64,000 nt of DNA from positions 39,398-103,397 of IMG/VR virus record IMGVR_UViG_3300047160_006395. One strand, written 5' to 3'. The notes under the pieces are model-generated. The model had not been told where the DNA came from. It worked only from the letters and a program-made list of their open reading frames with translations, and did no database searches. Shown one piece after another: positions 37,073 to 61,500 of this stretch (position 1 is the first letter of the stretch; each line of letters starts with the position of its first letter). The DNA comes from a virus. A program made the translations under genes and the position numbers.

Positions 37073-37086
37073 GAATCATCTCCATT

Positions 37087-37356: not shown

Positions 37357-37370
37357 GGTTCCTCCAGTTG

Positions 37371-37406: not shown

Positions 37407-37429
37407 GCGGCCAGCACCCAAAACACAGA

Positions 37430-37735: not shown

Positions 37736-37777
37736 GATCAGGTTCCTCCGTTGAGAGTTCAGTAAGATCCCGTCACA

Positions 37778-39772
37778 TCATACCGTCGAACCGCCATGCC
37801 AGATACCAGTCCGCACGCTAGCTGGCGTTTTGGGATGGAACTTGGGCATGTCGTCGTCGGCCATATTATCATCATCGTCGTCCCATGTATCCCCCCCAGG
37901 GTCCCAACCTTGAGTCAAGCCTTGCCGGCCGAAATGCGTGCGTTCAGCTAGGGCAGGAACGTAACTGGTACTGGCGATATCACTACTAGCACCCCGATGA
38001 GCCGCCTGCAAGGTAGCCTTCTCCAAACCTGAACCCAGATGTCGGGTCATCCAGTCAGGATCATGCTGAAGATTGTACATGCCCCGGACCATCGTTGGCT
38101 CGAACGGCGGCGGGGTGTCATGAACTTCCAGGTTGTTGACCCCGAATTCTTTGAGTTCGGGAATCATGCCCGGTCGGATCTTGGTACCGATACTGTGATG
38201 CAACACCGGGCGCTCAAGGTATTTACCCAGGGCCGACGACAAGCCAACCACTTTTGATCCAGGCCGCGGGGTCCAGTTCTTCTCGACGGTCGAGTACGGC
38301 ACGATGTCATCTTCAACATGATCACCGAACTCATCAGTAACCCGGACATGGTCGATCAGGCCCCGGGAGAGTAGCTCGACGTTTCGTCGGTGACTGCCCA
38401 TTCCTGAGCCCTTGAAGGCATCGCCGAATGCTTTGACGAAGTATCGGCGGCCCTCGCCGATGCCTTTGTGCTGGACCATCTCGGCGGGGTTGGGGATGCC
38501 GCCCGAAATAACATCGCCGGCCTCGACACTGTCGCCAACCTTGACGGTTGGATCAAGGCCATGCGGAACGTAGTGCTGCTGAGCACCGACCGAAACGTAC
38601 TTACCACCCTGGGGAGCGTCGGCGATTGTTGTGATCTTGCCGTCAATCTGGGCGTGGGTAGCTCCGCCTTTGAAGGTCTTGGGTACCTGGATCAGTTGGT
38701 TGATATGAGCGAATCCGGAGACTGCCTTGTCAGCGCCGGCGACGCCGCCGGTATGCCGGGCCGAAAGCTGGCCTTGCGAGAGCTTCTCAGACAGGGCCTG
38801 AGTTGCGGCCAGACCAACATAGTCGCCCAAGGGCGCCAGGCCACCACGTTCACGCACTCCGACATCTCGAGCATAGACACCGCCCTGCGGTGGTCCGCCG
38901 ATCATCGGTGATCGAACCAGGATGCGATTGAGCCCTTTGGTCTGGAGATCCTTGAGGATCTTGGGGGTCAGGACCGTGTTCCGCTTGTAGGGCCCGGCAG
39001 GATGGGCCAGCAAAGCTCCTTCGTTGTCAGGATCATCAGCCGTCGTTGGCAGCCCGCGGATCGATGACCTGTCTTCTTCCTCGGCATCATGGCCGGTAAC
39101 GACCAAGCGGTGACTGATCTGGTTGAGCTGCTTGGCCAGGAAGCCGGCTTCCTGGGTCGAGAACTTGGTGGCGGCAACACCCTTGCGAGCACCAAATGCA
39201 CTGGCCCAGTATTCGACTGGTGAAAGACCATGCGGGTAAGCGTGAAGGATCGGAACCGGGATCGGATTGTCATGATGATCAGCGTACATCAGGTCAGAGC
39301 CCAGGAGCGACTTCACGCTCAGCTTGCTACCTCGAGCGCCTGAGAGCACCTGATAAGCGAGTGGATTGCCGGCCTTCTTGGCCTCCTCGAAGACCGTGTC
39401 TTCCATCTCCTTGGTTCGCTCATGCAGTGCGGCAGTGATCGCATGCGCCTTTCGCTCATCGTCCATCCGGGTATCGGCCTGGATCATCTGGATGTGGCGG
39501 CGAAGCTGTTCCTTGATGCGCTCGCCAGCTGGGCTGGGCCGCAGATCTTCCAGGGAGGCAGAGTAACCACCTGTGGCATAGGCTGCATCACGGCCGACAT
39601 CGGAGAGCCGCTTGGCAATATCGCGGTACTTATCGGGATGTTTCTCGGCAATCTCCTGGAACAGCTTCTTGATGCCGCCGCCATCGAGAACGCGGGTATG
39701 GTCCCGCAACTCTTCAGGAAGAGCTTCGTTTATAGCCAGTTGCCCCAGCGTCGTTCTCAGCATCCGTGCCAC
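37778..39772 (-). CDS. rpoC: DNA-directed RNA polymerase beta' subunit, C-terminal part
   Basis: SGARGS; bridge helix EYW.SAFGARKG..ATK..T.EAG.L; trigger loop ATQALSEKLSQ..L...HTGG; HRRNVELL; the start may be ATG 39763. Confidence 0.9.
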   Translation of the reverse strand: MARMLRTTLGQLAINEALPEELRDHTRVLDGGGIKKLFQEIAEKHPDKYRDIAKRLSDVGRDAAYATGGYSASLEDLRPSPAGERIKEQLRRHIQMIQADTRMDDERKAHAITAALHERTKEMEDTVFEEAKKAGNPLAYQVLSGARGSKLSVKSLLGSDLMYADHHDNPIPVPILHAYPHGLSPVEYWASAFGARKGVAATKFSTQEAGFLAKQLNQISHRLVVTGHDAEEEDRSSIRGLPTTADDPDNEGALLAHPAGPYKRNTVLTPKILKDLQTKGLNRILVRSPMIGGPPQGGVYARDVGVRERGGLAPLGDYVGLAATQALSEKLSQGQLSARHTGGVAGADKAVSGFAHINQLIQVPKTFKGGATHAQIDGKITTIADAPQGGKYVSVGAQQHYVPHGLDPTVKVGDSVEAGDVISGGIPNPAEMVQHKGIGEGRRYFVKAFGDAFKGSGMGSHRRNVELLSRGLIDHVRVTDEFGDHVEDDIVPYSTVEKNWTPRPGSKVVGLSSALGKYLERPVLHHSIGTKIRPGMIPELKEFGVNNLEVHDTPPPFEPTMVRGMYNLQHDPDWMTRHLGSGLEKATLQAAHRGASSDIASTSYVPALAERTHFGRQGLTQGWDPGGDTWDDDDDNMADDDMPKFHPKTPASVRTGIWHGGSTV

Positions 39773-39776
39773 CTAA

Positions 39777-39805
39777 TAGCTAAAGAAAAGGGCAGGGCCC
39801 TTTTC
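39777..39805 (-). terminator. intrinsic terminator with TTTAGCTA tail
   Basis: GAAAAGGGC/GCCCTTTTC stem then TTTAGCTA. Confidence 0.65.
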
Positions 39806-39845
39806 CCACAGTGTATCACTGTGCGTTGCCACTTCAAACCATCCG

Positions 39846-40136
39846 TCATGCTGGCTTCTGCACAGCATTCGGAGGCGCGCCTTCTTTCAACATTAGGTTG
39901 CTTAACTTGTAAACGCCTATTGCCATCAATATCGCTGCGGAACGTCTAAACGTCCCAGGCTCGGCACCGCTGTTAATATAAAATGCCAAGCCCCATACGA
40001 CCACGTTGACCGTCAAGATCTGGGCAGCGAGTATCCATCGTTGCTGTCTAAGCGCGGTTATCGCCGGCCATCCGACATACGCCACCAAACCGACGACGAA
40101 GAGCACACCAACGAAGCTCATGAGCGAATCGAACAT
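39846..40136 (-). CDS. small membrane protein (about 3 TM), accessory cassette
   Basis: 96 aa hydrophobic; lower GC; has its own promoter and terminator. Confidence 0.7.
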   Translation of the reverse strand: MFDSLMSFVGVLFVVGLVAYVGWPAITALRQQRWILAAQILTVNVVVWGLAFYINSGAEPGTFRRSAAILMAIGVYKLSNLMLKEGAPPNAVQKPA

Positions 40137-40206
40137 TGTTTATTCCTTCCGGGCATCTAGCCCAATGGTCAGGGTGAAAACAGCCAGACATAGGCTGCCT
40201 TTCACT

Positions 40207-40237
40207 CTTGTATGACAAGGAAAAGCCCGAACTTTAG
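40207..40237 (-). promoter_or_regulatory. putative phage promoter CTAAAG-N15-GTCATACA
   Basis: minus strand reads CTAAAGttcgggcttttccttGTCATACAAG; very similar to 43290-43320. Confidence 0.7.
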
Positions 40238-40244
40238 CCCCGGA

Positions 40245-40295
40245 TAGCTAAAAAAAAGACCGGTACTGTGGGGCTCCGTCGCCCCGCAGTACCGG
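40245..40295 (-). terminator. intrinsic terminator with T8-AGCTA tail
   Basis: CCGGTACTG.GGGGC stem 40260-40295 then a T-run and AGCTA. Confidence 0.75.
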
Positions 40296-40328
40296 CCCTA
40301 ATCCAGCAAAGATGACAACAACGAGAGC

Positions 40329-41462
40329 TTATCGCCGCCGTCGCTTCCGCCGCCCCCTGCCTCTTCTCCGTCTTCTGCTCATCGGCTGCGAGTTAGCATC
40401 CGCGATCGCTTCCGCAACCGTGATCGGATCCTTGTAGATTGGCGTCATGACTACCGGCGAGTACGGTGATTCGCCCCTGACCCACGCGTGTATCGCATCC
40501 AAGGTCGGGGAAGACTTGGGGACCGACGTTCCGTTGACAACCAATCCCGGGCGTGTCGGTCCATGAGCTTTCAGCTCATTCGATACCGGCGCAGGCGGCG
40601 GCTCAGGAGAAGGAGGCGGCGGTTCCACAGGCGGCGGCTCCGGGGGAGCCTGATCAGAAGGCGGCAAGTCAACAGGCTTCTTTGCCCATCGACCGCCATG
40701 CACACCAGGCCCCTTCGGAGCTTTGTACGAATGCTGATTCTTATAGCGACCAGGATTCGCAAAACTCTCCCGATCTTCCGGGTCCTTGGCTCTGCTGCGG
40801 GCTCGAGACTCCTTCTTGGCCTTCGCGCGGTACGCTTTCTTCTCCTCTTCATTCATGCCGACCATGGCATTCCGCGTGATCGCAGCTCGGCGTGCCTGCA
40901 ATGACAGCAGTTTCTTTTCCTTTGGCACGGGCGCCGGCGCGTCTTCCACTGGTGGTGCGGCCGGCGGTGGTGGTGCCGCAGCTGGTGGCGCCTGTGGCGG
41001 CGGCGCGGCCGGTACAACTGGTGGCGGCATGGACTGACGCGCATGATCGGGCGTCGGCTTGGCTCGCGTCTCTCCGAGGGGCACATCCCATCTCTCGGAA
41101 GTCGCGGCTTCTCGCATACGCTCACGGGTACGTGAGGTATAGTTCGGGGTTTCCGGCAGGTCAGGAAACGGCTGGGCTACCAGCGGTTCCTGCGTCGCCG
41201 ATTGCGGCGGCTCCGGCGTGGGCATCGGTTTGGCTGGCTCCGGTACGGGCGCCGACTCCGCTTGAACATTAACGCCAGCATCCGGACCGGATGCCAAGAC
41301 CTGCTGTTCTTGCTGGTCAAAAACGAGTATCAGGTCCACAACGGTATCAGCTTCGATCTCGATCGAGCTGACCGCGATCTCACTATCTTTGAGCGAGACG
41401 CTTCGTAATTCGGAGCCATCGGCTCCGACGAGTCTGACACGGACATTTCGAGCCGCAGCCAT
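40329..41462 (-). CDS. Pro-rich, basic low-complexity accessory protein
   Basis: 377 aa; AAGGAG RBS; own promoter and terminator; Arg-rich C-terminus. Confidence 0.65.
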   Translation of the reverse strand: MAAARNVRVRLVGADGSELRSVSLKDSEIAVSSIEIEADTVVDLILVFDQQEQQVLASGPDAGVNVQAESAPVPEPAKPMPTPEPPQSATQEPLVAQPFPDLPETPNYTSRTRERMREAATSERWDVPLGETRAKPTPDHARQSMPPPVVPAAPPPQAPPAAAPPPPAAPPVEDAPAPVPKEKKLLSLQARRAAITRNAMVGMNEEEKKAYRAKAKKESRARSRAKDPEDRESFANPGRYKNQHSYKAPKGPGVHGGRWAKKPVDLPPSDQAPPEPPPVEPPPPSPEPPPAPVSNELKAHGPTRPGLVVNGTSVPKSSPTLDAIHAWVRGESPYSPVVMTPIYKDPITVAEAIADANSQPMSRRRRRGRGRRKRRRR

Positions 41463-41530
41463 TGGATACTCCTTTGTGCGGGCACGATGTTGTAGGTCAG
41501 GGCAGCATCAAACGTATAATGCTCCTCATC

Positions 41531-41562
41531 GATGTATGACACGAAATATCAGCTTCCTTTAG
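41531..41562 (-). promoter_or_regulatory. putative phage promoter CTAAAG-N16-GTCATACA
   Basis: minus strand reads GCTAAAGgaagctgatatttcgtGTCATACATC. Confidence 0.65.
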
Positions 41563-41620
41563 CTCATCCCTAACACCGAAAGTGAGAAAGTCAAGCTAGT
41601 AGGCAAGAGCGCACGGTGAG

Positions 41621-41680
41621 CTTGCTACGGTTTGCTACGGTTTGCTACGCCTTGTGTCGCTTCGTGTCGCTCACTGTCGC
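41621..41680. repeat. six phased 10-bp direct repeats (3x TTGCTACG, 3x TGTCGC)
   Basis: cttgctacgg tttgctacgg tttgctacgc cttgtgtcgc ttcgtgtcgc tcactgtcgc. Confidence 0.8.
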
Positions 41681-41697
41681 TAATTGGCACAGTTTGA

Positions 41698-41729
41698 TGG
41701 CTAAAAAAAGGGGTGAACGGCCCCCTTTT
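41698..41729 (-). terminator. intrinsic terminator with TTTAGCCA tail
   Basis: AAAAGGGG/CCCCTTTT stem then a T-run and AGCCA. Confidence 0.6.
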
Positions 41730-41732
41730 CCG

Positions 41733-42170
41733 CAGAGCATGGAAGCACCATGTTGCATGATCGGCTCGCTAGACCGATCGCCCTGTGGTCATGTTACAGG
41801 TAGCTTGGCCGTGGTTCTTCCACGGTTGAGCAACTGCCTCTGGGTATTTCGCCCATCGTAACGTGGGCGCGGACGCCGCCGTACCGGCACCTTCTCGCTA
41901 GTTCAAACTCACGTTCAACAATCACAGGAGGGAAGAAAAAGCCGGCGAGAGGACGTGAAGGGTGTTCCACCGACCGTCCCCACGCCGGCAACAGACACGA
42001 CTGAAGGAGTCGCCTCGCAGGGACGATTATCCGCGAGACTGGGGTAACATCCAGTACCCGTGAGCAGTCGTGCTGTGTAAGGCAGGGCGACCCACGACCG
42101 GCTCATGCAAACCGAAGTTGGTAGGCTTGGGCTTTTTGAACAGGAGCAGGTCGCCCTACACTTATATTTG
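41733..42170 (+). ncRNA. putative structured non-coding RNA (~440 nt), family unknown
   Basis: no credible ORF; series of stems with G-U pairs possible only in plus-strand sense; 9-bp long-range pairing 42084-42092 with 42149-42157. Confidence 0.55.
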
Positions 42171-42194
42171 ACGGGAAACGGGCCGAAGTTTAGT

Positions 42195-42449
42195 TCAAAC
42201 TTTCCAAGCAAAGTCTTCGATTCGCTTGGGTTTGAGCGTGTCGACTTTGACACGGTCGAGACCAAGGTTGGACAGGACCTGATTGAAGTTTGCGTCTTTC
42301 GCGTGGGCTACTGTGACGTGAGTTCCGTCGGGAGCGCCCACCCACTCCACGGCGACGGCCAGCGGTGTTCCGTTCGCGCTCTTGACAATCAAACGAGTGG
42401 CCGGGATAACCTGCGGCCGGCCCAGCCCGTCGATGATCTCCAGGATCAT
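42195..42449 (-). CDS. hypothetical protein
   Basis: 84 aa; ATGA overlap with the upstream gene. Confidence 0.65.
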   Translation of the reverse strand: MILEIIDGLGRPQVIPATRLIVKSANGTPLAVAVEWVGAPDGTHVTVAHAKDANFNQVLSNLGLDRVKVDTLKPKRIEDFAWKV

Positions 42450-43201
42450 GAAGCACCGTTCCTGAGTGACCGGGACAGGGCAGCCATGGCGGCTGCCTTG
42501 CTGCGAACTTCACGCAGCGAATCAAGCGAGTATTCCTGCCCGACATCGAATGACCGCCGGCTGCCTTCTTCCATCAGGTCGGAAAGGCTGCTGATGGCAG
42601 AGCCTGCCTTGGTGCCGCCGCCGATCGGACCTTGATCGGCGGTCAGCGGCGGGATCGGGCCAGGGCCAGCTGGCGCTCCCCCACCGCCGCCACCGGCACC
42701 ACCAGCTTCTGCTCCCTGAATATTGGCGCCGCCACCGCCGGCCTGAGCCTGCTCTTGCTGGGCCTGCTGCATCATCCCCTGATCGGGAGGCGGGCCAACC
42801 ACGATCGAAGGCGGTACCTGGACATTCATGGCTTCGCAGAGCTTCACCAGCAGGAACTGGATCGTCCAGAGCTTGGTATCGAGAAGCTGCTGCTCGGCTT
42901 TCTTGCCGCCACCCTTACCATGCATGCCGCCTTCGCCGCCACCGCCCGCAGCGTGAACGGCATGAGCCACCTGGGCCAGCATCGCCGGATCGACTGGCCC
43001 AGGTGGGGGCGCCGGTGCGCCGCCAGCGCCAGCTGCCATTGGATCAGGTATCGCCGCGCCTGGTGCGCCACCGCCGCCGGCGCCGGGGTCGGGCGGTTGC
43101 GCAGTCTTCTCCATATCGCCGTCGTCATCCAGTACGCCTTGGCCAACTCGCCATCTTGCAACGGCCCGTAGATGTGGGTTCAGAAGCGGTGTCACAGCCA
43201 T
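42446..43201 (-). CDS. Gly/Pro-rich putative head protein
   Basis: 251 aa; MEKTAQ motif; AAGGA RBS. Confidence 0.65.
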   Translation of the reverse strand: MAVTPLLNPHLRAVARWRVGQGVLDDDGDMEKTAQPPDPGAGGGGAPGAAIPDPMAAGAGGAPAPPPGPVDPAMLAQVAHAVHAAGGGGEGGMHGKGGGKKAEQQLLDTKLWTIQFLLVKLCEAMNVQVPPSIVVGPPPDQGMMQQAQQEQAQAGGGGANIQGAEAGGAGGGGGGAPAGPGPIPPLTADQGPIGGGTKAGSAISSLSDLMEEGSRRSFDVGQEYSLDSLREVRSKAAAMAALSRSLRNGAS

Positions 43202-43289
43202 GGTTCACATCCTTGTTAGATAGATCCAAGCGGGTGCCCTAGCGTTCATTATCTTAGCGTTGATTGCCTTGTGCGAGCAACGACTGGAA

Positions 43290-43320
43290 CTAAAGTTCGA
43301 GCCATTTCTCGTCATATAAG
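43290..43320 (+). promoter_or_regulatory. putative phage promoter CTAAAG-N15-GTCATATA
   Basis: CTAAAGttcgagccatttctcGTCATATAAG, 60 nt upstream of the plus-strand gene. Confidence 0.7.
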
Positions 43321-43379
43321 GATGATGAGCAGCCTATTTCTGTGCTGCCAGGAACTTCCCCAGGAATAGGACTACTGAC

Positions 43380-43646
43380 ATGACGACGTTCCAGGAACTG
43401 ATCACCCTGCCCAAGCACTGCAAGGCCATAGCCTGGTGCAACGCACCCGGCAAGGAGGCCGTATGTCTCACGTTCCGCACCCATCTCAGACACGGGCAAT
43501 TCCCCAACCCCGGGGAATGGGTACCGGCACGGGAGCACCATCACGGAGTGCTGGTCGCCGATACGCCCGAAGCCGCCCGCGCGGTCAAGGAATGGATCGA
43601 GCGGACCAAGCGGGCGTACAAGGCGTCGATATGGTCGCTTCCTTGA
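43380..43646 (+). CDS. hypothetical protein in an inverted accessory cassette
   Basis: 88 aa; fills the intergenic gap; flanked by a matching promoter and terminator. Confidence 0.7.
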   Translation: MTTFQELITLPKHCKAIAWCNAPGKEAVCLTFRTHLRHGQFPNPGEWVPAREHHHGVLVADTPEAARAVKEWIERTKRAYKASIWSLP

Positions 43647-43655
43647 AGTGCTTGA

Positions 43656-43704
43656 AAGGATGGGCGTGGCTTCGGCCCGCCCATCCTTCCTTTTTCTTTA
43701 GCTA
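43656..43704 (+). terminator. intrinsic terminator (cUUCGg loop) with TTTAGCTA tail
   Basis: AAGGATGGGCG...ggcTTCGgcc...CGCCCATCCTT then TTTTTCTTTAGCTA. Confidence 0.8.
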
Positions 43705-46700
43705 TCAGCGATCCGCCACGATCTCGACCGGCTGATCGACGTTGATCTCGCCGCGACGATAAGCAGCCAGAGCATCGGCCTTGGTGGCAAAGACCCGCGG
43801 CCGCTTGTTGGATCGTGTGGATGACGCTGCATACAAACCAGCCGCATATTCTCTGGATGGTAATTGATGTGCCTTAAAAGAGCTAGTGCTCATTAGGTTG
43901 CGAGAAGGCAGCATCTTCTCGTAGGCGTCCCTGACCGCCTCGTCGGTGACCGGAACGTGGTACTGCATGGCATCGCCATCGAAGTCAGCACCGAAGCCGG
44001 TTACGATCATCGGCGAAACGTGCAGGGTCTCACCTTGCTCCAACCGGGGCCGGAAAGCCATGATCCCATACCGGTGATGCACCGGGGCCCGGTTGATGAT
44101 CACCGGCCGGGCATCCATCTCGGTCACCATGGCCTCGCGGGCCACCGGCTGGCGGTCTCTGACGGCCCGTACGGCGTCGATGCGGTTCATGCCACGTCGA
44201 ACCAGCCGGCGAACGATGAAAGGCTGGTAGACGTCCCAGGCCCTGTTCTCGGGCAAACCAACCTGGTCCATGTCGAGATCCGGGTTGGGCACGATCGTCG
44301 CTCGGCCGACCAGATCGGTCGCACTGGCCAGCAGCTTGCGCTGGACCATGCCCGTCTTGGGGCTGTTGCCAAAGATCTGCTTGAGCACGCCCCGAACGCC
44401 CCGCTCGCGATTCTTGGGATGCAGCGGATCACCCAGCCCGGTGACTGCCTTGAGGGCGCCGTAGTGGGCAGCCCGCTCTTCCGAGATGTCGCTAACCCGG
44501 CCCGACATGTCTTTGAGATTATCCCGGGCTTCGATAAGTTCCTTGTAGAGATAGTTGGCATCGGCAACCATGGGCAGCTTGCTGCCGGCCATTGTTGATA
44601 CGGGCCGGAAAACGGGCGGCAGCACTGGCGCCCGATCGAGCATCCAGTCACGAGGATGCAGCCCATGCTTCTGGGCTGTCTTCAGAAAGCCGAGCTTGCG
44701 CACGGCTGCGTCCCGCGCTCCCTTGCGACCAGAACGAATGTCAGCACGGGCTTCGTCGATCGCCTTGTCGATGTCAATCTTGTCCAGCGCCTTGGCGATG
44801 GCGTCAGGCCCGGTACGGCCGTTGAGCTGCTCCTTGCCGGTCATGACATCCATGAACTTATTCTGGGTTAGGCCCAGCATCCGGCGGATCGGCTCTTCCA
44901 TGACAGGATTGGGCAGCGGCTCGGCCAGCCTGATCGCCGACCATCTGTTACCGCCGTGTCCGCCCGTCAGCGCCTCATCGAATAGCCCGCCCTTGAGCGG
45001 CTTGAGCCCGGTCTTCCAGTCCACTGTATCGCCGTGTGCGATCTCGCGGTCGCCAGCCAGCTCGTTGACGTCGTTGTTCGATAGAGCCATGACATTCAGC
45101 TTGGTGCCCTTGCGAACCACGTTGATGCCGCCGGCCTTGAGCAGGTTCTGGAACTTGTCATAGATCATGGGCGTCTTGGGCGTCGGCATCGGCTGGCCCG
45201 CCATGAACTGCTGCCAGAATTCAGGGTGCGCCTGACCCCGGACGGCGCCGGCATCACGAAGCACCTCGGTGGCGCCATGTGATAGCAGGGCGTTGATGTC
45301 CATCAGGGAGATCCGCTTCGAGCCAGCTTCACCGCCACGGGCAGGAGCGCCTTCCGCAGTATATCCGCCCGTGCCACGGCCCTGGCCCTTCGACTCGCTG
45401 GTATGGTGCAGCTTCATGAACCAGCGGTTGCCAGTGAGGATGCGGGGGATGTCCCGGTTGGCAACTGGATCGTGGATCGTCTCGGCCGACTTCATACCGT
45501 TCTTGGTCAGTTCCTGGATGACCCACTCGGTATAGTTCCGGTCGTTGACAAAGTCAGGAACACGGTAGGGCTTGCCCGTCTTTTCAGCGATCTTGCCCAG
45601 AGCGGCTTCCATCTTCTGGGCCGGGTTCGCTCGAGTGATGATACCCAGCGGGTTCACGAGCACCTCGAAGGGCCGGCCCTGGCTATCGTGCGGCATCTTG
45701 TGATCCGGGACGATGGCCGCGACGACGCCTTTGTCGCCGTAACGCCCGGACATCTTGTCGCCAACCTCCATCGGGTTCAGGCTCTTGACTGAGACGACGA
45801 TGCCCTTGGCTGTCTTCTCGACATCGGTGACTTCACCCGGAGCGTGATGGTTCCAGGTCTCTGAATGATCGGCCCAGGATGCCGAGCGGCCGCGACTGAT
45901 GGCGCCGTGAGTTCGCTCTCGTTCCTTGACGGCCAGGATCAGCGGATCGCCGTGGTTGACGATCGTGCCCGGCTTGACCACACCCTCGTGGTCGATCGTG
46001 CTGAGCATGTTGCGGTCATACTTGCCAGGAAAGATCGAAACATGAGCGTGCTTGCCAGCCTTTATCCCTTCCTCCATGTCGAGCGAGTGCTGGTACATGT
46101 GCTCCGAAGACAACCGCTTGGCCATCGACTCGCTGATGACGGTCGCATCCTCGAAGTTGAGCCCGTGGTACGGGATGTAGGCTACGCGGGCATTCTGGCC
46201 CAAAGCAGCGACGCCCTTCTCATCGGTATAGTTGGACCGGGCCAGTAGATCACCAGGAGCAACCTTGTCTCCTACTCCGACTACAGGAGTCTGGTGTATA
46301 TAGGTCTTCCGGTTGTAGGGATAGTTCACGTATAGTTCGTGCGTGTGTACTTTCCCGTCGCTGCCCCGGATCTTGATGACCCCGTTGGCTTTGTCCACTG
46401 CCGTCACGGTGCCGCCGGTATCACTGTGCAGAGCACCCATGTAACGACCGTAGCGGGCTTCGTAGCTGTCGGTGTCGCTGCCCCTGACGCCAGCCTGCAC
46501 CAGTGGGGACTGTGGATCTTTCAGCGGCAGGGCCTGAGTGATCATACGGCCGGCCATGACCGCGCGCTGGGCCTTGCCGGTCGACTTGGCCGGAACCAGG
46601 TTGCCGATGGCGCTGAAGGCGTCGTCCATCGAGGGTAGTTCGTACTGTACCTGCGACCTCGGTACTTCGCGGATCTTGCCAGCAACCAGCGCCGAGACGT

Positions 46701-49224
46701 ATGGCTTGCTCGAGCGCAGCTCGCCCGGGAAAGAGATCGTTGCATCGGCCAGGTCCTGGGCACTACGGTACTCACGCTTTCCAGTCTTCACATTATGGAA
46801 TGGTGCGTAGAGCCGGCCATCATCGCCCTTCATCGTCGCCTGGGCTACCCGGCTATCGACGCCCACGTGGAGACTTTCAGGAGTAACCACTGGATCGATC
46901 AACCCGAAGTGCGACGGCTGGACGTTGCGACTTTCACTCGGGATCGCATCGAGCGAGTTGCCACACCAACAGGTCTTGCCATTACGACGGATGAAGAGCA
47001 GGCCGCCCGGAACCGAAGCACAATAGACCTTGCCGGTATAGTTGATCTCCTGATATTGATCGCACTTCTTTTGCCGCACCACCAACGCCTCATCGGCGGT
47101 ACGGATCATGACTTGGTATTGCGGCCGCTCGTCGGCTTTATACCGTGTCCTATAGGTTACGGCATAACCCAGCGTGATCGCCAGAAACCCGACCTGTTCG
47201 GCGAGCTGGCGCGAGGCGGATGCGTAGAGGCGTCGCGTCGGCAAGAAGCCACTATTATCCATCGTGGTGATCACATCGAAGAACCGGCGGCGCGATGCCG
47301 GCGATGCAGTCATAACATAGTCAGGCACGAACTTGGCGGCGGCCGTACCGAATTGACGCAAGTAATATGCCAGATGTTTACCTGAGATCTTGAACCGCCG
47401 ATCTTGCTCATAGTGATGAGTGAAGCCGAGGCGCATCAGCAAGTCGGCGATGAACCCGGCTTCGACCGGGTTTCGCGATCGCCGCTTATTGAGTTCAACA
47501 CGATAGTCACCCCGTCGATAAATGCTGTTACCATCAGCCAGGTAACACGCGAGAAATTCCAGCCAGTCATCGAATGGGACTGCGATCGGCGTTCTAACCG
47601 CTGTCCCACAGTTCTGGCCATCGGCCGGTGCCGGCTGGATCATAAAAACGGCCGGCGACTCTCCAAATGTTGCTTGTGCAGCCGCGATCTTGTGTCTCGC
47701 CCGTTTGCCATGGACCTGGTGCGCAGCCACAAACTCGAAGGGACGATCCATAGGCTCACGACCAACCGTTGTTGTCGGTCGCGAAACGTAGAGCCGGTGG
47801 TCAGGGGTCACGAGATAGTCGATACGATCAGTAACGCCGCGAAGCATCGGTCCAGCGTAGTCAGTGACGTGGAGTGACTCCGCCCGCGCAAAGAAAAGTC
47901 GACCATCATCGGTACGACAGGCGAAATTGTCGTCGAGTGTTACTGTGGGCCACGGCTTCCAACCCGCTGCGGTGAGAACCTCGGTATCACTGGAGTAACA
48001 CGGGATGCCGCCCATCCCGAGCCGACTGATCCTGGCTTGCTGATCGAAGATCATCGCAGGGTTGATACCTTCAGTCGGCTGCCCTAGCCCGCTGGACATG
48101 ATCGCCGCGTTGATCCCTCGAGTAAGCAGGTCGGGTTGAACGTGCTTCAGCCCTTCGGTCATGGACGCTTTCCAAAGGGTCTTGCCCAGGAGCATGCGAT
48201 CTTTGCCGACCCGTTCAGCCAGCAGGTCTTCAGGCCCCATCGCCGTCATGTAAGCCAGGTGGTCACGATCATCAGGCTCGGCTTCACCCTTGTTGATCGC
48301 CATCAGCTTCTTGGTGGTATCGAGCATCTGATCCAGGGAGACACGATCGTATGGCTTGCCCAGGGTTCGCTTGGTCACCTCGGGGTCGAGCCCCATCTGC
48401 TCGAACGATTCACGAACTTCTTGTTCTGGTGCCTTGTTCGGGTCGGGCTTGCGGACCATACGGTCATGCAGCTTACCGATGACCGATGGATCGTCCTTGA
48501 GCATGTTGGGCTGATAGAGATCGCCCCAGGCTTCCTGGAGCTGCTTATCACTGGCGCCCATGGCCCGAAGCACACCCGTCAGCGGCATCTTCGACTGACC
48601 CACCTTGAGCCGGAAGACGCCTGTCTCGGGCTCCATGAAAATACGGTGTGCCATGCCTTTGCCTGGCATCACGTTGACGTGGGCTTCCAGCTCGCCGTTA
48701 GACTGGATACGGGTATAGACGCCAGGCCGGAGCCGGAGCTGATGCGATAGGGTGTACTCGGTGCCGTTGTTGATGAACGTGCCGTGATCGGTCAGGTAAG
48801 GCACCGTAGCGACAGTGGATCGCTTCTTGTCGATGATCTTGCCAGTCTCGTTCTCTTTCAGCACCCAGGTGCCACGGAGTCTGGTCCCCAGACTGCGGCC
48901 ACCCAGGATAGCTTTTTTCCAGTCAGAGATTCCATGCTGAACAGCGCCTTCGTACCCGACATCTTCGAGAGTCAGGGTGTGCCGCTGATTGGTGACCGGT
49001 GGGATCTTGGAAGCTGCTTCCCGAACTCGATCTTGAATTCGGGCCCGGATCGCCGCCGAGTCGCCAAATGGCCGGAGGCCCGCCGGCGCATGGAGAGGCA
49101 TGGCCGGCGAGCGCGGAACGGGACGCTCTTTCGGTGTCCCATCGTGGATCTGCCCGTCACCATCACCGTCACGTGGAATGCCATGTAACGACCCAAGTGC
49201 AGACTGTGAAAGTACACTGGGCAT
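43705..49224 (-). CDS. rpoB: RNA polymerase beta subunit fused to the N-terminal half of beta' (catalytic), intein-containing
   Basis: beta motifs FINNG.E...QL, SHFGLIDP..TPE, GDKMSGRYGDKGVV, KLHH; beta' motifs PVLPP.FRP, NRAP..H, GADFDGD. Confidence 0.92.
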   Translation of the reverse strand: MPSVLSQSALGSLHGIPRDGDGDGQIHDGTPKERPVPRSPAMPLHAPAGLRPFGDSAAIRARIQDRVREAASKIPPVTNQRHTLTLEDVGYEGAVQHGISDWKKAILGGRSLGTRLRGTWVLKENETGKIIDKKRSTVATVPYLTDHGTFINNGTEYTLSHQLRLRPGVYTRIQSNGELEAHVNVMPGKGMAHRIFMEPETGVFRLKVGQSKMPLTGVLRAMGASDKQLQEAWGDLYQPNMLKDDPSVIGKLHDRMVRKPDPNKAPEQEVRESFEQMGLDPEVTKRTLGKPYDRVSLDQMLDTTKKLMAINKGEAEPDDRDHLAYMTAMGPEDLLAERVGKDRMLLGKTLWKASMTEGLKHVQPDLLTRGINAAIMSSGLGQPTEGINPAMIFDQQARISRLGMGGIPCYSSDTEVLTAAGWKPWPTVTLDDNFACRTDDGRLFFARAESLHVTDYAGPMLRGVTDRIDYLVTPDHRLYVSRPTTTVGREPMDRPFEFVAAHQVHGKRARHKIAAAQATFGESPAVFMIQPAPADGQNCGTAVRTPIAVPFDDWLEFLACYLADGNSIYRRGDYRVELNKRRSRNPVEAGFIADLLMRLGFTHHYEQDRRFKISGKHLAYYLRQFGTAAAKFVPDYVMTASPASRRRFFDVITTMDNSGFLPTRRLYASASRQLAEQVGFLAITLGYAVTYRTRYKADERPQYQVMIRTADEALVVRQKKCDQYQEINYTGKVYCASVPGGLLFIRRNGKTCWCGNSLDAIPSESRNVQPSHFGLIDPVVTPESLHVGVDSRVAQATMKGDDGRLYAPFHNVKTGKREYRSAQDLADATISFPGELRSSKPYVSALVAGKIREVPRSQVQYELPSMDDAFSAIGNLVPAKSTGKAQRAVMAGRMITQALPLKDPQSPLVQAGVRGSDTDSYEARYGRYMGALHSDTGGTVTAVDKANGVIKIRGSDGKVHTHELYVNYPYNRKTYIHQTPVVGVGDKVAPGDLLARSNYTDEKGVAALGQNARVAYIPYHGLNFEDATVISESMAKRLSSEHMYQHSLDMEEGIKAGKHAHVSIFPGKYDRNMLSTIDHEGVVKPGTIVNHGDPLILAVKERERTHGAISRGRSASWADHSETWNHHAPGEVTDVEKTAKGIVVSVKSLNPMEVGDKMSGRYGDKGVVAAIVPDHKMPHDSQGRPFEVLVNPLGIITRANPAQKMEAALGKIAEKTGKPYRVPDFVNDRNYTEWVIQELTKNGMKSAETIHDPVANRDIPRILTGNRWFMKLHHTSESKGQGRGTGGYTAEGAPARGGEAGSKRISLMDINALLSHGATEVLRDAGAVRGQAHPEFWQQFMAGQPMPTPKTPMIYDKFQNLLKAGGINVVRKGTKLNVMALSNNDVNELAGDREIAHGDTVDWKTGLKPLKGGLFDEALTGGHGGNRWSAIRLAEPLPNPVMEEPIRRMLGLTQNKFMDVMTGKEQLNGRTGPDAIAKALDKIDIDKAIDEARADIRSGRKGARDAAVRKLGFLKTAQKHGLHPRDWMLDRAPVLPPVFRPVSTMAGSKLPMVADANYLYKELIEARDNLKDMSGRVSDISEERAAHYGALKAVTGLGDPLHPKNRERGVRGVLKQIFGNSPKTGMVQRKLLASATDLVGRATIVPNPDLDMDQVGLPENRAWDVYQPFIVRRLVRRGMNRIDAVRAVRDRQPVAREAMVTEMDARPVIINRAPVHHRYGIMAFRPRLEQGETLHVSPMIVTGFGADFDGDAMQYHVPVTDEAVRDAYEKMLPSRNLMSTSSFKAHQLPSREYAAGLYAASSTRSNKRPRVFATKADALAAYRRGEINVDQPVEIVADR
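46957..48000 (-). mobile_element. intein (348 aa) with a LAGLIDADG-type endonuclease in RNAP beta
   Basis: GIP|CYSSDTEVLT...VTPDH...FLACYLADG...VYCASV...CWCGN|S. Confidence 0.88.
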
Positions 49225-49241
49225 GGCCTGATCACCGCGCG

Positions 49242-58567: not shown

Positions 58568-61500
58568 TCAACCAAAGAGGTGCCACGGGCGCTTGTAGCC
58601 AGGTGACCCTACCCTGCGAAGGACTTCCCGGAACTGCTCGTTGAGTTCTTCCTTGCGCTGCGACTGACGCTCGAGTACTTCGTCAGCAGACGGTCGAGGC
58701 TTGGCGCCGAACATGCTACTGAGCCAGCCCGGCGGCGGCATCTTGGCAACGTATCGCTGTATCCTCACATTGCGTAGCTCGGGCGGCAAGCCCTCATGGC
58801 TGTCATACCGTAACCCGCGGCCCCTGGCCTGACCCAGACGAGCTTCGTTCCAGTGCGGATCGAGCAGCTGAATGAGTTGCGTACCCTTGGCTGAAATACC
58901 TTCGGCGCCAGCCGGCCCGATCAAGAGCACGCGCCGTTTGCCAGCGTTATACTCATCCAGCATCTGCTTGCGCTGCTCATCGGGCATCTCACCGTGGAAC
59001 TGGCCGTAGGGAATTCCCTCGTGTTCGAGCGCCGCCGCGTAAGGCGTCAGCCCGGCGTCGATGAAGTTCGAGTAGACCAGCGCCTTGGCCTGCGGGTTAC
59101 TGGCCAGGGTCTGCTTGAGATTGCCCATGGCAGACTGGAGTTTGGCCGATGTCTGGAAAGCGCGCATCGGATCTTTGGACGAGTGGTACGGGTAAAGCGA
59201 TAAGGCAGCCTGTCGCGGTCCAGTCATGAAGGCTGATAGATGACCCAATTCCTGCTTGGTGAGCGGGTAGTCGTTGGACAGCTTCCAGCGCATCAGCCAG
59301 GGCATCTTGCCCCACATCAGCTTGTAGAAGTCTTGCTGCTCCGGGCTCAGGTTGACTTCTACTCGTTCATCGTTGGTCTTGACCCCTTCAGGCGAACGTG
59401 ATGCCTGGTAGTCAACGTGCCCCTCGAGCAATCGCTCGAGGTCATCTTCGTTCTGGAGCGATGGCACCTTGACCGACTTGACACCCTGGAGCCAACCCAT
59501 CCAGCCAGGACTGACTGTCGTGCTGCCGACGAACTTCTGATTGAAGGCAGCAGGAGTCATTTCCTTGCCAGTAAGGATTGACAAAGGTACAGCCAGATCA
59601 CTGGGCTGATTGACAATCGGCGTGCCTGAGAGCAAGACCCGATGCGGAGCTGTCATAGCCAGATTCATCGCGGCGCGGGCGCCAGCCGACTCCGGGTTGC
59701 GGATGCGCTGGGCCTCGTCAAGTATAATGGTATTAGGTATGTGTTGAGGTTGCTTACCCATTCCAACCCCAGTATATGAAAGAATATCCGGAGCCGAACC
59801 TGGATCCCATCGCCCAACTTCTTTACGGAAGTTTTCCCGCAGCGATGCTGGAGTGATCGCCGCGTAAGGGCCGCCAATGGCTTTAGCCGCTTCGATCGCA
59901 CTCCGAGTTTTTCCAGAACCGAGGCCGTGATAGACAAGAAGCCCATCACCGTGCGCTACTCGTCCGGCAACTCGGCGTTGGTAGGGCTGCATCTCGACGT
60001 TGAGTTGCGCGAGCTTACTCCTAAGATCTGTTCGATCGGCCAACCACGTTGATGTCGCATGTATAGAGTGAGATAGGCAACTTGCAGCTTTTCTGCCCAG
60101 TCCTTGAGCGAAAGAGTCTCGCCCTGATGCGTCAGAATGATATTGTTTTTGCGGCTGTAACGCCTGTCCAGACTGCCGGACGGACATGACAATACATCCG
60201 CTATCGCCATCCCTTTCTTGATCCTCGCTTTGATCATGGTCGGCGACACGCCCAGCCGTCTTGCCCATTGCCTGATGTTCAGCCGCAGCCCATCGTGTTC
60301 CAGGAACTTGGCCGCCTTGTTCTCCGTCCCGGGCGGCACGGTGAGCGCCTGTTTGACCGACCAACCCGCATTGAGCCGACCCCGCAACGTCATGCTGGCA
60401 ATGCCCGTCTCTTCCGCCCACGCGTCGAGCAGCTGCGTCTTTCCGTTGAACGTGATCCTGCGGCAGTAACGCCGGTTCTTGGCTTGTTGCGCCCGCGACG
60501 CCCAAATGCAGTTGCCCGGGAAGTAACCCTTGTCGTTGTCCTTCCGCTCGATCGTCAGTCCGGGTGGGCATTCGCCCATATCGGCCAAGAAGTTCTCGAA
60601 CTTCAGCCAGCGCCGGCAGACCTTGATCCCCCGACCGCCATAGTCCCCGTACTTCTGGTTTTTCGGGTTCTCGCACCGTTGCAGCATGGTGCCCCAACTG
60701 CGATACGTCCGTGAACCGCTCTGCCCGTGTGTCCTGGCCATTTGCGCCTCTCGTGTGAACTTCGTTGTTCCTTTCATTATACGAGAGGTCCGGGGAAGTG
60801 AAAGATGCCGCCTTGGTGAGCCGGCTTCCGACCACCTTGCGCGGGGCGTGGATCCGGAAGTTGGTCCCGATGTGGGTCAGGCCCACGATGCCGTCCTCGG
60901 CCGAGTCCTGGATGAACTCATTAGGGCGTTCGCTGAGCAGCTTCGCGAGGATCGCGTGCTTGGCCGAGTAATTCTTTCTATCCGACTCGGCCTTAGCACG
61001 TTTCAGGTCGGCCAAAATGGGATGGGGCGCAGCGGCTTTCTCACTCCAGACATGACCGCACCGGTTGCACTTGCCAGTACGGGGATCTTGCTCGAGCCGG
61101 GCTCCGCATTTCGGGCAGCATTCGCCAGGCGGACAAGACTCAATCCTCATGCTGCGCGCCAACTTGTTTAGACCTTCGGCCGCCCCGGTTGTCGGGATCA
61201 TGCCGGCTCCATCCTGCGGGCCTGTCGTGGGCAGCTTGCTCACCCATGCCGGCGGCGCAGGCTTGCGCTGCTTGTCCTCGGCGATCAGATCGTCAGTGCT
61301 CTCGCCCACGTTGGGGCTGCGCTCCGGAATGCCGTCGACTGCCGATGCCTCATTACCAAAACCAGCGAGGCTGGCCAACTTGGCAATCGGATGTGTCTTG
61401 AGCGCCTTGAGTGCGGCGATACGCCCTGTATAGAAAGGCTTGGATTCATCCTCGGGTTTGTACTGACGAATTCGCCTGATCGCTGTGTCGAGATGCCGTA

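What the first reader, a model, noticed from the sequence alone, without database searches (positions are those of the whole stretch)
37778..49224. Phage multisubunit RNA polymerase with an unusual split: beta fused to beta'-N, beta'-C separate
Seen: one ORF contains all the beta motifs followed directly by beta' motifs up to the catalytic loop (GADFDGD instead of NADFDGD), with no obvious beta' Zn-binding Cys cluster. The bridge helix and trigger loop are in a separate gene about 4 kb downstream. Established: cellular enzymes split between beta and beta', cyanobacteria additionally split beta' after the catalytic region, and phiKZ-like enzymes are split into more pieces. Inference: both catalytic barrels on one chain, encoded among virion genes, suggest a distinct and possibly virion-packaged RNAP lineage.
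Basis: partly seen in the sequence, partly recalled or inferred. Interest (0 to 1): 0.7.

Follow-up and report, generated by a model that had tools for sequence, protein, structure and literature searches.

The report
Fused-and-split phage RNA polymerase with intein
An uncultured phage of about 200 kb encodes its only RNA polymerase as two oddly cut chains: all of beta is joined to the catalytic front of beta-prime, and the back of beta-prime lies 3.9 kb away. The first chain is interrupted by a self-splicing intein, and the finished enzyme has no cysteine or zinc site. The layout is real and common in a large, barely studied phage family.

Summary
Window 43705-49224(-) is one 1839-aa ORF that runs from beta straight into beta' as far as the GADFDGD loop. 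Window 37778-39772(-) encodes the rest of beta', including the bridge helix and trigger loop.

An 84%-identical relative without the intein defines its borders exactly.

The layout is not an artefact:
- Salmonella phage Arash (gp206/gp216), Vibrio phages D69/D148/D181 and hundreds of metagenomic protein clusters share it.
- In 34 related viral contigs the whole beta-beta' is a single ORF of about 2100 aa, so the split is probably a secondary change.

The 3.9-kb gap holds four promoter-terminator cassettes. It is bounded by a 24-nt inverted repeat that touches the stop codon of one gene and the start codon of the other.

The family has one polymerase set per genome and no alpha or omega. It has a conserved sigma70-like protein. 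In this lineage the spliced enzyme has no cysteine.

Packaging into the virion is suggested only by mass spectrometry on Arash particles.

I found no paper that describes this architecture. This scan has already noted it on other genomes.

Verdict: a new variant of a known kind.

The parts
43705..49224 (-). Gene for the beta-beta'N precursor (P0001). It is 1839 aa as translated and 1491 aa after the intein is removed.
   Evidence: The ORF and its translation are. Pfam finds Rpb2_6 and Rpb1_2 on one chain. The best PDB sequence matches are bacterial beta (E 1.6e-58) and beta' (E 6e-51).
48001..49224 (-). N-extein, residues 1-408: the beta N-terminal part up to the fork-loop-2 motif GMGGIP.
   Evidence: Alignment with the intein-free allele in L005 and with E. 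coli beta.
46957..48000 (-). Intein of 348 aa (residues 409-756) with a LAGLIDADG homing-endonuclease domain. It begins with Cys1, has TPDH as block B and two LAGLIDADG-type motifs, and ends ...CGN followed by Ser+1.
   Evidence: It is an exact in-frame insertion relative to the 84%-identical L005 protein. Pfam LAGLIDADG_3 matches at E 0.0045. Homologous inserts occur in Lak megaphage and other phage proteins at 23-27% identity. It holds all 8 cysteines of the ORF.
43708..46956 (-). C-extein, residues 757-1839: the rest of beta (the barrel with GDKMSGRYGDKG at 1155-1166), the beta/beta' junction (1366-1381), the beta' clamp helices, and the catalytic loop GADFDGD (1745-1751, window 43972-43992).
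   Evidence: In the AlphaFold model of residues 1150-1839 the junction is a confidently modelled two-strand hairpin. The model matches beta' and cyanobacterial/plastid RpoC1 chains.
45082..45129 (-). Fusion point. The last beta strand (GINVVRKG) runs directly into the first beta' strand (TKLNVMAL).
   Evidence: Alignment to E. coli shows beta ~1340 joined to beta' ~18 with no linker. The model has pLDDT 80-90 here.
44917..44988 (-). Site of the deleted beta' zinc ribbon (GLFDEALTGG..HGGNRWSAIRLAEP).
   Evidence: E. coli beta' residues ~60-100, including C70/C72/C85/C88, have no counterpart in any family member.
39773..43704 (.). Variable island of four accessory cassettes between the two polymerase genes. 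It contains three copies of the promoter-like CTAAAG-N15/16-GTCATA motif (40211-40237 minus, 41535-41562 minus, 43290-43316 plus) and repeated terminator modules ending TTTAGCTAT. A 24-nt inverted repeat (39773-39796 / 43685-43708) bounds it.
   Evidence: The motif occurs 3 times in the window, all inside the island, with 0 expected by chance. Only one small ORF is well conserved in L005. No Rfam intron or other RNA family is found.
37778..39772 (-). Gene for beta'C (P0002, 664 aa from the GTG; the likely start is the ATG at 39763). It carries the bridge helix (residues 194-216) and trigger loop (323-343), has lost the second zinc site (286-305), and has an acidic C-terminal tail (630-641).
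   Evidence: It aligns from residue ~3 to bacterial beta' just before the TTVGR motif, and from residue 27 to position 5 of the cyanobacterial rpoC2 model.
58568..60085 (-). SNF2-type helicase domain at the C-terminal end of an 1806-aa ligase-NUDIX-helicase ORF. It is the orthologue of Arash gp217, a virion-detected protein encoded next to beta'C in Arash. It is a candidate polymerase partner.
   Evidence: Pfam SNF2-rel_dom and Helicase_C. It is 31% identical to gp217 at E 2.5e-61. Homologues lie near the polymerase gene in 15 related loci.

Best explanation
These two genes encode the catalytic core of a phage-owned RNA polymerase of the bacterial type. The core is built from two polypeptides instead of the cellular beta, beta', alpha2 and omega.

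Chain 1 is all of beta fused head-to-tail to the N-terminal, catalytic half of beta'. It is made as a precursor, and its 348-aa intein in fork loop 2 must splice out before the active-site cleft can form. Chain 2 is the C-terminal half of beta', with the bridge helix and trigger loop.

The enzyme needs no alpha or omega. The covalent beta-beta' link replaces the alpha-dimer assembly platform. It has lost both zinc sites and, in this lineage, every cysteine. It most likely finds promoters through a phage-encoded sigma70-family protein that is conserved across the family.

The ancestral form in the family was probably a single chain of about 2100 aa. The split arose at a surface linker about 20 residues upstream of the cyanobacterial gamma/beta' split. 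That position is now a hot spot where self-contained promoter-ORF-terminator cassettes are inserted and exchanged.

Shown:
- the anatomy of the two genes
- the intein borders
- conservation across the family
- absence of alpha and omega
- a single polymerase set per genome
- the sigma-like fold of the partner protein

Inferred:
- catalytic activity
- dependence on splicing
- use of the sigma-like protein
- the direction of evolution (fused first, then split)
- with about even odds, packaging of the enzyme in the capsid and its injection to transcribe early genes
For: - Domain content and co-linearity with E. coli beta/beta', including the barrel lysines, xADFDGD loop, clamp helices, bridge helix and trigger-loop Arg/His.
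- Bacterial polymerases are the best matches by sequence and by fold. They outrank jumbo-phage polymerases.
- The intein is delimited to the residue by an intein-free allele.
- The architecture is shared by Arash, D69 and 10 viral contigs, and is fully fused in 34 contigs.
- More than 150 clusters at 50% identity match at E<1e-196, and more than 100 clusters at 90% identity are 60-85% identical. Most of the latter are 1440-1500 aa, on contigs up to 235 kb.
- There is one beta' catalytic domain per genome in 5 genomes, 2 of them rated complete.
- No alpha or omega is found in the same 5 genomes, while all 14 control genomes give a hit.
- The sigma-like protein is homologous to Arash gp10 and is present in 5 of 5 genomes. 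Its model (pLDDT 83.7) matches only sigma70-family chains at probability 1.00.
- The finished enzyme has 0 Cys in 2155 residues, against 1.09% Cys in the contig proteome. 114 of 119 intein-free homologues also have none.
- The island is bounded by a 24-nt inverted repeat at the stop and start codons, and it holds all three promoter-like motifs of the window.
- In Arash particles gp206, gp216, gp10 and gp217 gave 3516, 1210, 467 and 1148 spectra (PMC10585845).
Against: - No biochemical data exist for this phage or for any member of its lineage.
- The contig is only about half a genome. A second polymerase, or an alpha-like protein too diverged to recognise, cannot be excluded for this phage. 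The complete relatives argue against it.
- The Arash proteome lists about 90 proteins, including nucleotide-metabolism enzymes, so detection there is weak proof of packaging.
- The intein lacks the usual penultimate His (it ends GN), and the solved-structure search by sequence gave nothing. Splicing competence is therefore inferred.
- The tree does not resolve whether the window lineage and the Arash lineage split once or twice, and the root rests on a single outgroup.
- No portal gene could be recognised next to the polymerase gene in this window.
Confidence: 0.75

Rival explanations
1. The anatomy is the same, but the enzyme is not a virion protein. It is made after infection and serves only middle or late transcription, while early genes are read by the host polymerase. 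Its detection in Arash particles would then be carry-over of an abundant protein.
For: - The Arash authors raise this possibility themselves, and their particle proteome also contains ribonucleotide reductase and ligases.
- Family members carry further sigma-like genes that could redirect the host enzyme (Arash gp196).
- No portal or capsid-targeting signal was found next to the gene in this window.
Against: - The genes are co-oriented with the head genes in this window. In 31 related loci the polymerase gene lies a median 935 nt downstream of the portal gene on the same strand.
- gp206 was the single most detected protein in Arash particles.
- There is only one polymerase set per genome, so no separate early enzyme exists.
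- Total avoidance of cysteine fits a protein that spends time outside the cell. This is circumstantial.
Confidence: 0.3
2. The two halves are re-joined into one chain. This would happen either by RNA splicing, with the 3.9-kb island acting as a giant intron, or by protein trans-splicing through a split intein at the break.
For: - Mobile splicing elements are rife in this gene family. There are inteins at many sites, and Vibrio phage D181 has a true group I intron in the orthologous gene.
- In 34 relatives the chain is continuous.
Against: - P0001 ends and P0002 begins exactly where the fused relatives are continuous, so no intein fragments are left over.
- The island holds its own promoter-like and terminator-like modules on both strands, and ORFs on both strands.
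- No intron family is found at E<=0.1.
- In D69 and Arash the gap has quite different content and size, from 0.6 to 4.7 kb.
Confidence: 0.03
3. The locus is a decaying or non-functional copy, or an assembly chimera, of a bacterial rpoBC operon picked up by a phage.
For: - Both zinc sites are lost, and the catalytic loop has G in place of the canonical N.
- The gene carries an intein and is split by cargo genes.
Against: - There are long open frames with no stops, and all catalytic motifs are invariant in 46 aligned homologues.
- The same layout occurs in hundreds of independent assemblies and in cultured phages.
- Similarity to bacterial enzymes is only about 27-30%, so this is not a recent capture.
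Confidence: 0.02

Closest known systems
Salmonella phage Arash gp206 (1525 aa) and gp216 (606 aa), with sigma gp10 and helicase gp217 (OQ632216.1; PMC10585845). The same genes occur in Vibrio phages D69, D148 and D181.
   Same: The architecture is the same two chains, split at the same linker. The zinc ribbon is deleted in both. The sigma-like gene sits among baseplate genes, an SNF2 helicase is associated, and there is one polymerase set per genome. Identity to P0001 is 33-34%.
   Different: - Arash keeps the four cysteines of the second zinc site and has AADYDGD.
- Arash has no intein.
- The genes in its gap are unrelated and mostly on the other strand.
- The portal gene lies directly upstream in Arash.
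- The paper annotates the genes simply as beta and beta' and does not note the fusion.
Single-chain beta-beta' ORFs of about 2030-2150 aa in 34 IMG/VR contigs (for example the complete 195,580-bp genome behind L053)
   Same: They belong to the same family. The beta/beta' junction is the same, the zinc ribbon is deleted, and the sigma-like gene is present. Identity is 32-37%.
   Different: beta'C is part of the same polypeptide, and the second zinc site is kept. They are known only from metagenomes, and no cultured phage in the INPHARED set has this form.
Natural cellular rpoB-rpoC fusions, as in the NCBIfam beta/beta' models PRK09603 and PRK14844. From memory these are Helicobacter and Wolbachia.
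   Same: The beta C-terminus is joined in frame to the beta' N-terminus. This is tolerated because the two ends lie side by side in the clamp.
   Different: The cellular fusions keep a full-length beta' on the chain, both zinc sites, and alpha and omega. P0002 scores lower against these models than against ordinary rpoC.
Cyanobacterial and plastid split beta' (RpoC1/gamma plus RpoC2)
   Same: beta' is cut between the catalytic barrel and the bridge helix. P0002 residue 27 aligns to position 5 of the rpoC2 model, and the model of chain 1 matches RpoC1 chains end to end.
   Different: - The phage cut lies about 20 residues further upstream.
- The halves are 3.9 kb apart rather than adjacent.
- beta is fused to the front half.
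phiKZ- and AR9-type jumbo-phage multisubunit polymerases (reviews PMC7598289, PMC7824862, PMC13282480)
   Same: They are phage-encoded two-barrel enzymes without alpha or omega. One of their two sets is packaged in the virion.
   Different: In those phages beta and beta' are each cut into two or three pieces, there are two sets per genome, and there is no sigma70 homologue. Here beta is whole and fused, there is one set, a sigma70-like partner is present, and the sequence is closer to bacterial enzymes.
Inteins in the second-largest subunit of eukaryotic and viral RNA polymerases (RPB2, RPA2, RPC2; PMC1635734)
   Same: They are LAGLIDADG inteins at highly conserved cleft-lining sites, two of them in the fork domain. 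Splicing is thought to be required before assembly.
   Different: Those are eukaryotic and giant-virus genes with six known sites. In this phage lineage I count inserts at 26 site clusters, at least 17 with canonical junctions, and up to 4-5 in one protein.

Membership tests
Bacterial-type multisubunit RNA polymerase core (beta/beta') | A beta double-psi barrel with the two conserved lysines (GDK..G.KG) | tested here: met
   Pfam Rpb2_6 at E 2e-48. GDKMSGRYGDKG at residues 1155-1166 aligns to E. coli 1063-1074.
Bacterial-type multisubunit RNA polymerase core (beta/beta') | A beta' barrel with the Mg-binding loop NADFDGD | tested here: met
   The loop reads GADFDGD and all three Asp are present. 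The first residue varies in the family (N, G or A).
Bacterial-type multisubunit RNA polymerase core (beta/beta') | Bridge helix and trigger loop | tested here: met
   P0002 residues 194-216 and 323-343 align to E. coli beta' 769-805 and 913-940, with the trigger-loop Arg and His kept.
Bacterial-type multisubunit RNA polymerase core (beta/beta') | Two beta' zinc sites (C70/72/85/88 and C814/888/895/898) | tested here: not met
   The first site is deleted in the whole family. The cysteines of the second are lost in this lineage but kept in Arash and the fused forms. The exteins contain no Cys at all.
Bacterial-type multisubunit RNA polymerase core (beta/beta') | Alpha dimer and omega as assembly subunits | tested here: not met
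   PF01000 and PF01192 give no match in this contig, Arash, D69 or two complete IMG/VR genomes, while all 14 control genomes match. Use of host alpha cannot be tested here.
Bacterial-type multisubunit RNA polymerase core (beta/beta') | Promoter recognition through a sigma70-family factor | tested here: inconclusive
   A conserved sigma70-like protein exists, and the beta' clamp helices that bind sigma are present. The beta flap tip is shortened. Binding and function were not tested.
phiKZ/AR9-type jumbo-phage polymerases | beta and beta' each encoded in two or more pieces, with two sets (virion and non-virion) per genome | tested here: not met
   beta is unsplit and fused. There is one catalytic beta' domain per genome in 5 genomes.
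phiKZ/AR9-type jumbo-phage polymerases | No sigma70 homologue (gp68 or gp226 is used instead) | tested here: not met
   A sigma70-like protein is present in all 5 genomes searched. The reviews state that the phiKZ group has no sigma.
Arash-like two-chain phage polymerase | beta-beta'N on one chain and beta'C separate, cut before the TT(V/L)G(R/Q) motif, with the zinc ribbon deleted | tested here: met
   Three-way and ten-way alignments and reciprocal best matches to gp206 and gp216.
Canonical intein with LAGLIDADG homing endonuclease | An in-frame insertion absent from close homologues, at a conserved site | tested here: met
   L005 (84% identity) lacks exactly residues 409-756. The site corresponds to E. 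coli beta T539/R540 in fork loop 2.
Canonical intein with LAGLIDADG homing endonuclease | Nucleophile at position 1, block B TxxH, C-terminal Asn, and a Ser/Thr/Cys at +1 | tested here: met
   Cys409, TPDH at 473-476, Asn756 and Ser757.
Canonical intein with LAGLIDADG homing endonuclease | Penultimate His in block G | tested here: not met
   The intein ends ...WCGN. The same GN ending is common in the family's other inteins. From memory, this His is not universal among active inteins.
Canonical intein with LAGLIDADG homing endonuclease | Two LAGLIDADG motifs | tested here: inconclusive
   Motifs are seen at 557-567 and 648-659. Pfam LAGLIDADG_3 reaches only E 0.0045, below its cut-off. There is no PDB sequence match.
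Canonical intein with LAGLIDADG homing endonuclease | Protein splicing activity | not testable with these tools
   This needs expression and a gel-shift or mass measurement.

The most novel reading that the evidence does not exclude
The whole family, from Arash to this lake- or soil-type lineage, would run its infection on a single self-sufficient polymerase of the bacterial type. That enzyme has shed alpha, omega, zinc and cysteine. It is held together by a covalent beta-beta' link, is programmed by its own sigma factors, and is packed into the capsid and injected with the DNA. This would be a third kind of virion RNA polymerase, beside the N4/crAss single-chain enzymes and the phiKZ multi-piece enzymes. 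The single chain would be the ancestral form. Mobile promoter-terminator cassettes would have cut it in two, and inteins and introns would pepper it because it is the most conserved gene these phages share.
Probability: 0.4. Interest if true: 0.85.

Novelty: new variant of a known kind. Interest (0 to 1): 0.68.

Why it matters
Current reviews say that phage multisubunit polymerases are confined to phiKZ- and AR9-like phages and that these have no sigma, alpha or omega. This family is at least as abundant in metagenomes. Its enzyme is much closer to the bacterial one, and it makes several questions testable:
- How far can a cellular-type polymerase be simplified? This one has one or two chains, no assembly subunits and no zinc.
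- Can a sigma70-type factor work on such a core without the zinc ribbon?
- How is a 165-235 kDa enzyme packed into a capsid and delivered?

A cysteine-free, two-gene, sigma-programmable polymerase could also be a convenient orthogonal transcription tool. The cultured phages Arash and D69 make experiments possible now.

The density of inteins in this one gene is among the highest I know for any protein. It offers a natural series for studying where a large enzyme tolerates inteins.

Tried and rejected
1. PHROGs and Pfam on 18 neighbouring ORFs gave almost nothing usable.
2. I looked for the portal gene near the polymerase. Profile comparison of the family's portal cluster against every window ORF of 130 aa or more in 30000-64000, and against L005 and L006 ORFs, gave probabilities below 1%. 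The portal of this phage is not identified.
3. The island is not an intron. Rfam gave nothing at the gathering threshold and only two sub-threshold chance hits at E<=0.1. There are no tRNAs.
4. A split intein at the break is rejected. No extra residues flank the cut.
5. The generic sigma70 promoter and terminator scan over 37000-51000 found no more sites than shuffled sequence.
6. The PDB sequence search with the intein alone found no match.
7. Sigma70_r2 (PF04542) does not detect the sigma-like gene. It was recognised only by homology to Arash gp10, by weak r3/r4 and NCBIfam hits, and by fold.
8. The family tree is a quick search with one outgroup. It could not decide between one and two split events, because the deep nodes are unresolved.
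9. The apparent extra split in L006 is a single-base frameshift just after an intein. It is probably a sequencing error.
I therefore could not inspect gene neighbourhoods of the closest metagenomic homologues, or their sample origins.
11. Seven literature searches found no description of the architecture. The library lacks most subscription journals.
Full report
**What is there**

The window is the last 64 kb of a 103,397-bp IMG/VR viral contig that CheckV rates about 50% complete. Almost all of its genes are on the minus strand.

The ORF at 43705-49224 (1839 aa, P0001) carries Pfam Rpb2_6 (E 2e-48) and Rpb1_2 (E 2e-20) on one chain. The ORF at 37778-39772 (664 aa, P0002) carries Rpb1_5. The best solved-structure matches by sequence are bacterial beta (E 1.6e-58) and beta' (E 6e-51) for P0001, and bacterial beta' from about residue 575-665 onward for P0002.

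I aligned these proteins with E. coli rpoB and rpoC, fetched as L058:
- Beta ends at the equivalent of residue ~1340 and continues without a linker into beta' residue ~18.
- The beta' zinc ribbon is deleted.
- The E. coli lineage-specific inserts SI1, SI2 and SI3 are absent.
- The barrel lysines, catalytic Asp triad, clamp helices, bridge helix and trigger loop are conserved.

P0001 is about 350 aa longer than its relatives. The 84%-identical protein in L005 lacks exactly residues 409-756. The junction reads GGIP | C...GN | S.

The insert has Cys1, a TPDH block B, two LAGLIDADG-type motifs, a terminal Asn and Ser at +1. It is related to inserts in Lak megaphage and other phage proteins. It sits between the equivalents of E. 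coli beta T539 and R540, in fork loop 2 at the end of rifampicin cluster I. An unspliced precursor is unlikely to be active at that position; this is an inference.

**This is a family trait, not an artefact**

- tblastn against cultured phages finds the same two-gene layout in Salmonella phage Arash (gp206 of 1525 aa, gp216 of 606 aa) and in Vibrio phages D69, D148 and D181, at 33-34% identity.
- A scan of IMG/VR returned 53 loci. Of the 44 that show both parts, 34 encode the entire beta-beta' as one ORF of about 2030-2150 aa (longer where inserts are present). The other 10 are split like the window.
- An exhaustive profile search found more than 150 clusters at 50% identity with E<1e-196. A second search listed more than 100 clusters at 90% identity that are 60-85% identical. 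Most of these are 1440-1500 aa long and lie on contigs up to 235 kb.
- The window's own lineage is therefore very common in metagenomes and is uniformly of the split type.

In a maximum-likelihood tree rooted on E. coli, the window lineage and the Arash lineage are separate, well-supported clades. The deep branches are unresolved, so there may have been one split event or two. The cut is at the same linker in both lineages, just before the TT(V/L)G(R/Q) motif. It lies about 20 residues upstream of the cyanobacterial gamma/beta' cut. Fully fused forms occupy several deep branches, and the cellular ancestor has an unsplit beta'. "Fused first, split later" is therefore the simpler history, but it is an inference.

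**The gap between the two genes**

The 3.9 kb between the genes is not conserved. Even L005 shares only one small ORF and a fragment of another.

The gap contains four units. Each has a promoter-like CTAAAG-N15/16-GTCATA element, one or two ORFs (or, in one case, an ORF-poor stretch), a hairpin, and a T-run ending TTTAGCTAT. All three exact copies of the bipartite element in the 64-kb window lie in this island, with none expected by chance.

The island is bounded by a 24-nt inverted repeat (39773-39796 / 43685-43708, 88% complementary). Its outer ends overlap the TGA of P0001 and stop one base short of the GTG of P0002. Two cassettes also share a 53-nt promoter-leader module in opposite orientation.

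No intron or other RNA family is detected, and no intein fragments flank the cut. The two halves are therefore separate polypeptides. The cut is a hot spot for self-contained accessory cassettes. From memory, this resembles the mobile promoter/stem-loop cassettes described in the hyperplastic regions of T4-type phages. L005 lacks these boxes at its junctions, so the particular cassettes are younger than the split.

**What the enzyme works with**

In five genomes I find one beta' catalytic domain each and no alpha or omega homologue. The five are this contig, Arash, D69 and two IMG/VR genomes rated 100% complete. All 14 control genomes score for alpha and omega.

A 264-aa protein is encoded 11 kb before the window, among baseplate genes. 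It is homologous to Arash gp10, which is annotated as a sigma factor, and it has a counterpart in all five genomes. Its sequence matches are weak but are exclusively to sigma70-family models and structures. More than 200 homologues exist, and JGI names many of them a specialized sigma subunit. Its AlphaFold model (pLDDT 83.7) has only sigma70-family chains among its top 50 structural matches, all at probability 1.00 and spanning domains 2 to 4.

An SNF2 helicase is the orthologue of Arash gp217. Here it forms the C-terminal domain of an 1806-aa ORF, and it lies near the polymerase gene in 15 loci. It may be a RapA-like partner; this is an inference.

**No cysteine at all**

All eight cysteines of P0001 are inside the intein. 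The 1491 extein residues, the 664 residues of P0002 and the sigma-like protein have none. The contig proteome has 1.09% Cys, which gives a chance probability near 6e-11. E. coli beta and beta' have 7 and 15 cysteines.

Of 119 intein-free homologues, 114 also have none. The rest of the family keeps little beyond the four ligands of the second zinc site. The major capsid protein and several neighbouring head-module proteins are also Cys-free. This fits a protein exposed outside the cell, but it does not prove that.

**Virion association**

The evidence is indirect:
- In Arash, gp206 gave the most spectra of any protein in purified particles (3516). gp216, gp10 and gp217 gave 1210, 467 and 1148. 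The authors note that these may be either delivered enzymes or abundant contaminants (PMC10585845).
- In 31 related loci the portal gene lies a median 935 nt upstream of the polymerase gene on the same strand.
- In this window the polymerase genes sit in the same co-directional array as homologues of Arash capsid and head proteins (24734-25678, 28209-29708) and the tail sheath (835-3603). I could not identify a portal here.

I rate packaging at about even odds.

**Other predictions from sequence**

Several rifampicin-contact positions differ from E. coli: F514P, D516E, H526Q, I572D, V146S and R687T. Insensitivity to rifampicin is likely but untested.

From memory, the first residue of NADFDGD helps discriminate ribo- from deoxyribonucleotides in E. 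coli. It is G in this lineage, A in Arash and N elsewhere.

An AlphaFold model of residues 1150-1839 has a mean pLDDT of 66.7, with 80-95 across the junction and clamp. It shows the last beta strand and the first beta' strand as a hairpin. Its best matches are beta' and cyanobacterial or plastid RpoC1 chains.

**Mobile elements in the gene**

I sampled 269 homologues, and 125 of them carry at least one large insert. In total there are 244 inserts in 26 site clusters. At least 17 clusters have canonical intein junctions, and single proteins carry up to four or five inserts. The window's site is shared by seven proteins.

In Vibrio phage D181 the orthologous gene is interrupted by a group I intron (RF00028, 100.7 bits) followed by a homing-endonuclease gene. 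For comparison, six intein sites were described in all eukaryotic and giant-virus second-largest subunits (PMC1635734).

**Comparison with what is known**

The enzyme works like a bacterial core plus sigma. It fails the membership features of alpha2/omega assembly and zinc binding. It is not a phiKZ/AR9-type enzyme, because it has one set, an unsplit beta and a sigma70-like partner. It combines two solutions known separately in cells, the rpoB-rpoC fusion and the beta' split.

Reviews from 2020, 2021 and 2026 do not mention it, and seven full-text searches found no description. The Arash paper annotates the genes as beta and beta' without comment.

Earlier reports of this scan on other genomes reached the same reading. 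I treated them as leads only. Everything above was tested here.

Noticed in passing
window 52728-54779 (-): This 683-aa ORF carries its own intein (about Cys236 to Asn606, with Cys at +1). TIGR01443 intein_Cterm scores above its cut-off. The L005 orthologue matches over only about 237 aa, in a 312-aa ORF. The host protein has a GDCVSHG motif that looks like a cysteine peptidase.
   Followed up: partly
window 58568-63988 (-): This 1806-aa ORF runs to the contig end and combines ATP-dependent DNA ligase, NUDIX and SNF2 helicase domains. Another first-stage note reports HNH genes overprinted inside it. The stretches between the domains might be inteins, but I did not test this.
   Followed up: partly
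P0001 and P0002 exteins; contig 27381-28175: The spliced polymerase (2155 aa) and the sigma-like protein contain no cysteine. 114 of 119 intein-free homologues of chain 1 also have none. The major capsid protein and several head-module proteins are Cys-free too.
   Followed up: yes
homologues P0003-P0271 of P0001: The beta-beta'N gene of this lineage is an intein hot spot. There are 244 inserts in 125 of 269 sampled proteins, in 26 site clusters, with up to 4-5 per protein (for example P0045 at 3350 aa and P0010 at 2948 aa). One common class of insert lies right after the catalytic DFDGD loop.
   Followed up: partly
L063:4431-4711 (Vibrio phage D181): A group I intron (RF00028, 100.7 bits) followed by a homing-endonuclease gene interrupts the orthologous polymerase gene in the conserved NHPGRLTMAGK motif. 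The record annotates the exons as separate hypothetical proteins.
   Followed up: yes
window 41700-42195 (-): This is the ORF-poor part of the island that another first-stage note calls a structured RNA. It starts behind a variant box (CTAAAC-N15-GTCAAA) and ends with a hairpin plus TTTTTTTAGCCAT. It has no Rfam match at E<=0.1.
   Followed up: partly
L006:9965-16370: This relative (42% identity) has two inteins in chain 1 and an apparent one-base frameshift directly after the second intein (...HN|SGRYG then a stop). Its beta'C ORF is 1395 aa, so it probably carries inteins as well.
   Followed up: partly
window 49242-50414 (-) and L005:8017-9993: The ORF directly upstream of the polymerase gene encodes a probable membrane protein of 390 aa. 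Its L005 orthologue has an extra ~270-aa insert with an HELGH metalloprotease-like motif.
   Followed up: no
contig-wide (window 39778, 41557, 43696 and four sites before the window): AGCTAAAG occurs 7 times in the contig, against 1.8 expected. The 9-mer TAGCTAAAG occurs 3 times, and two of those bound the island between the polymerase genes in inverted orientation.
   Followed up: partly
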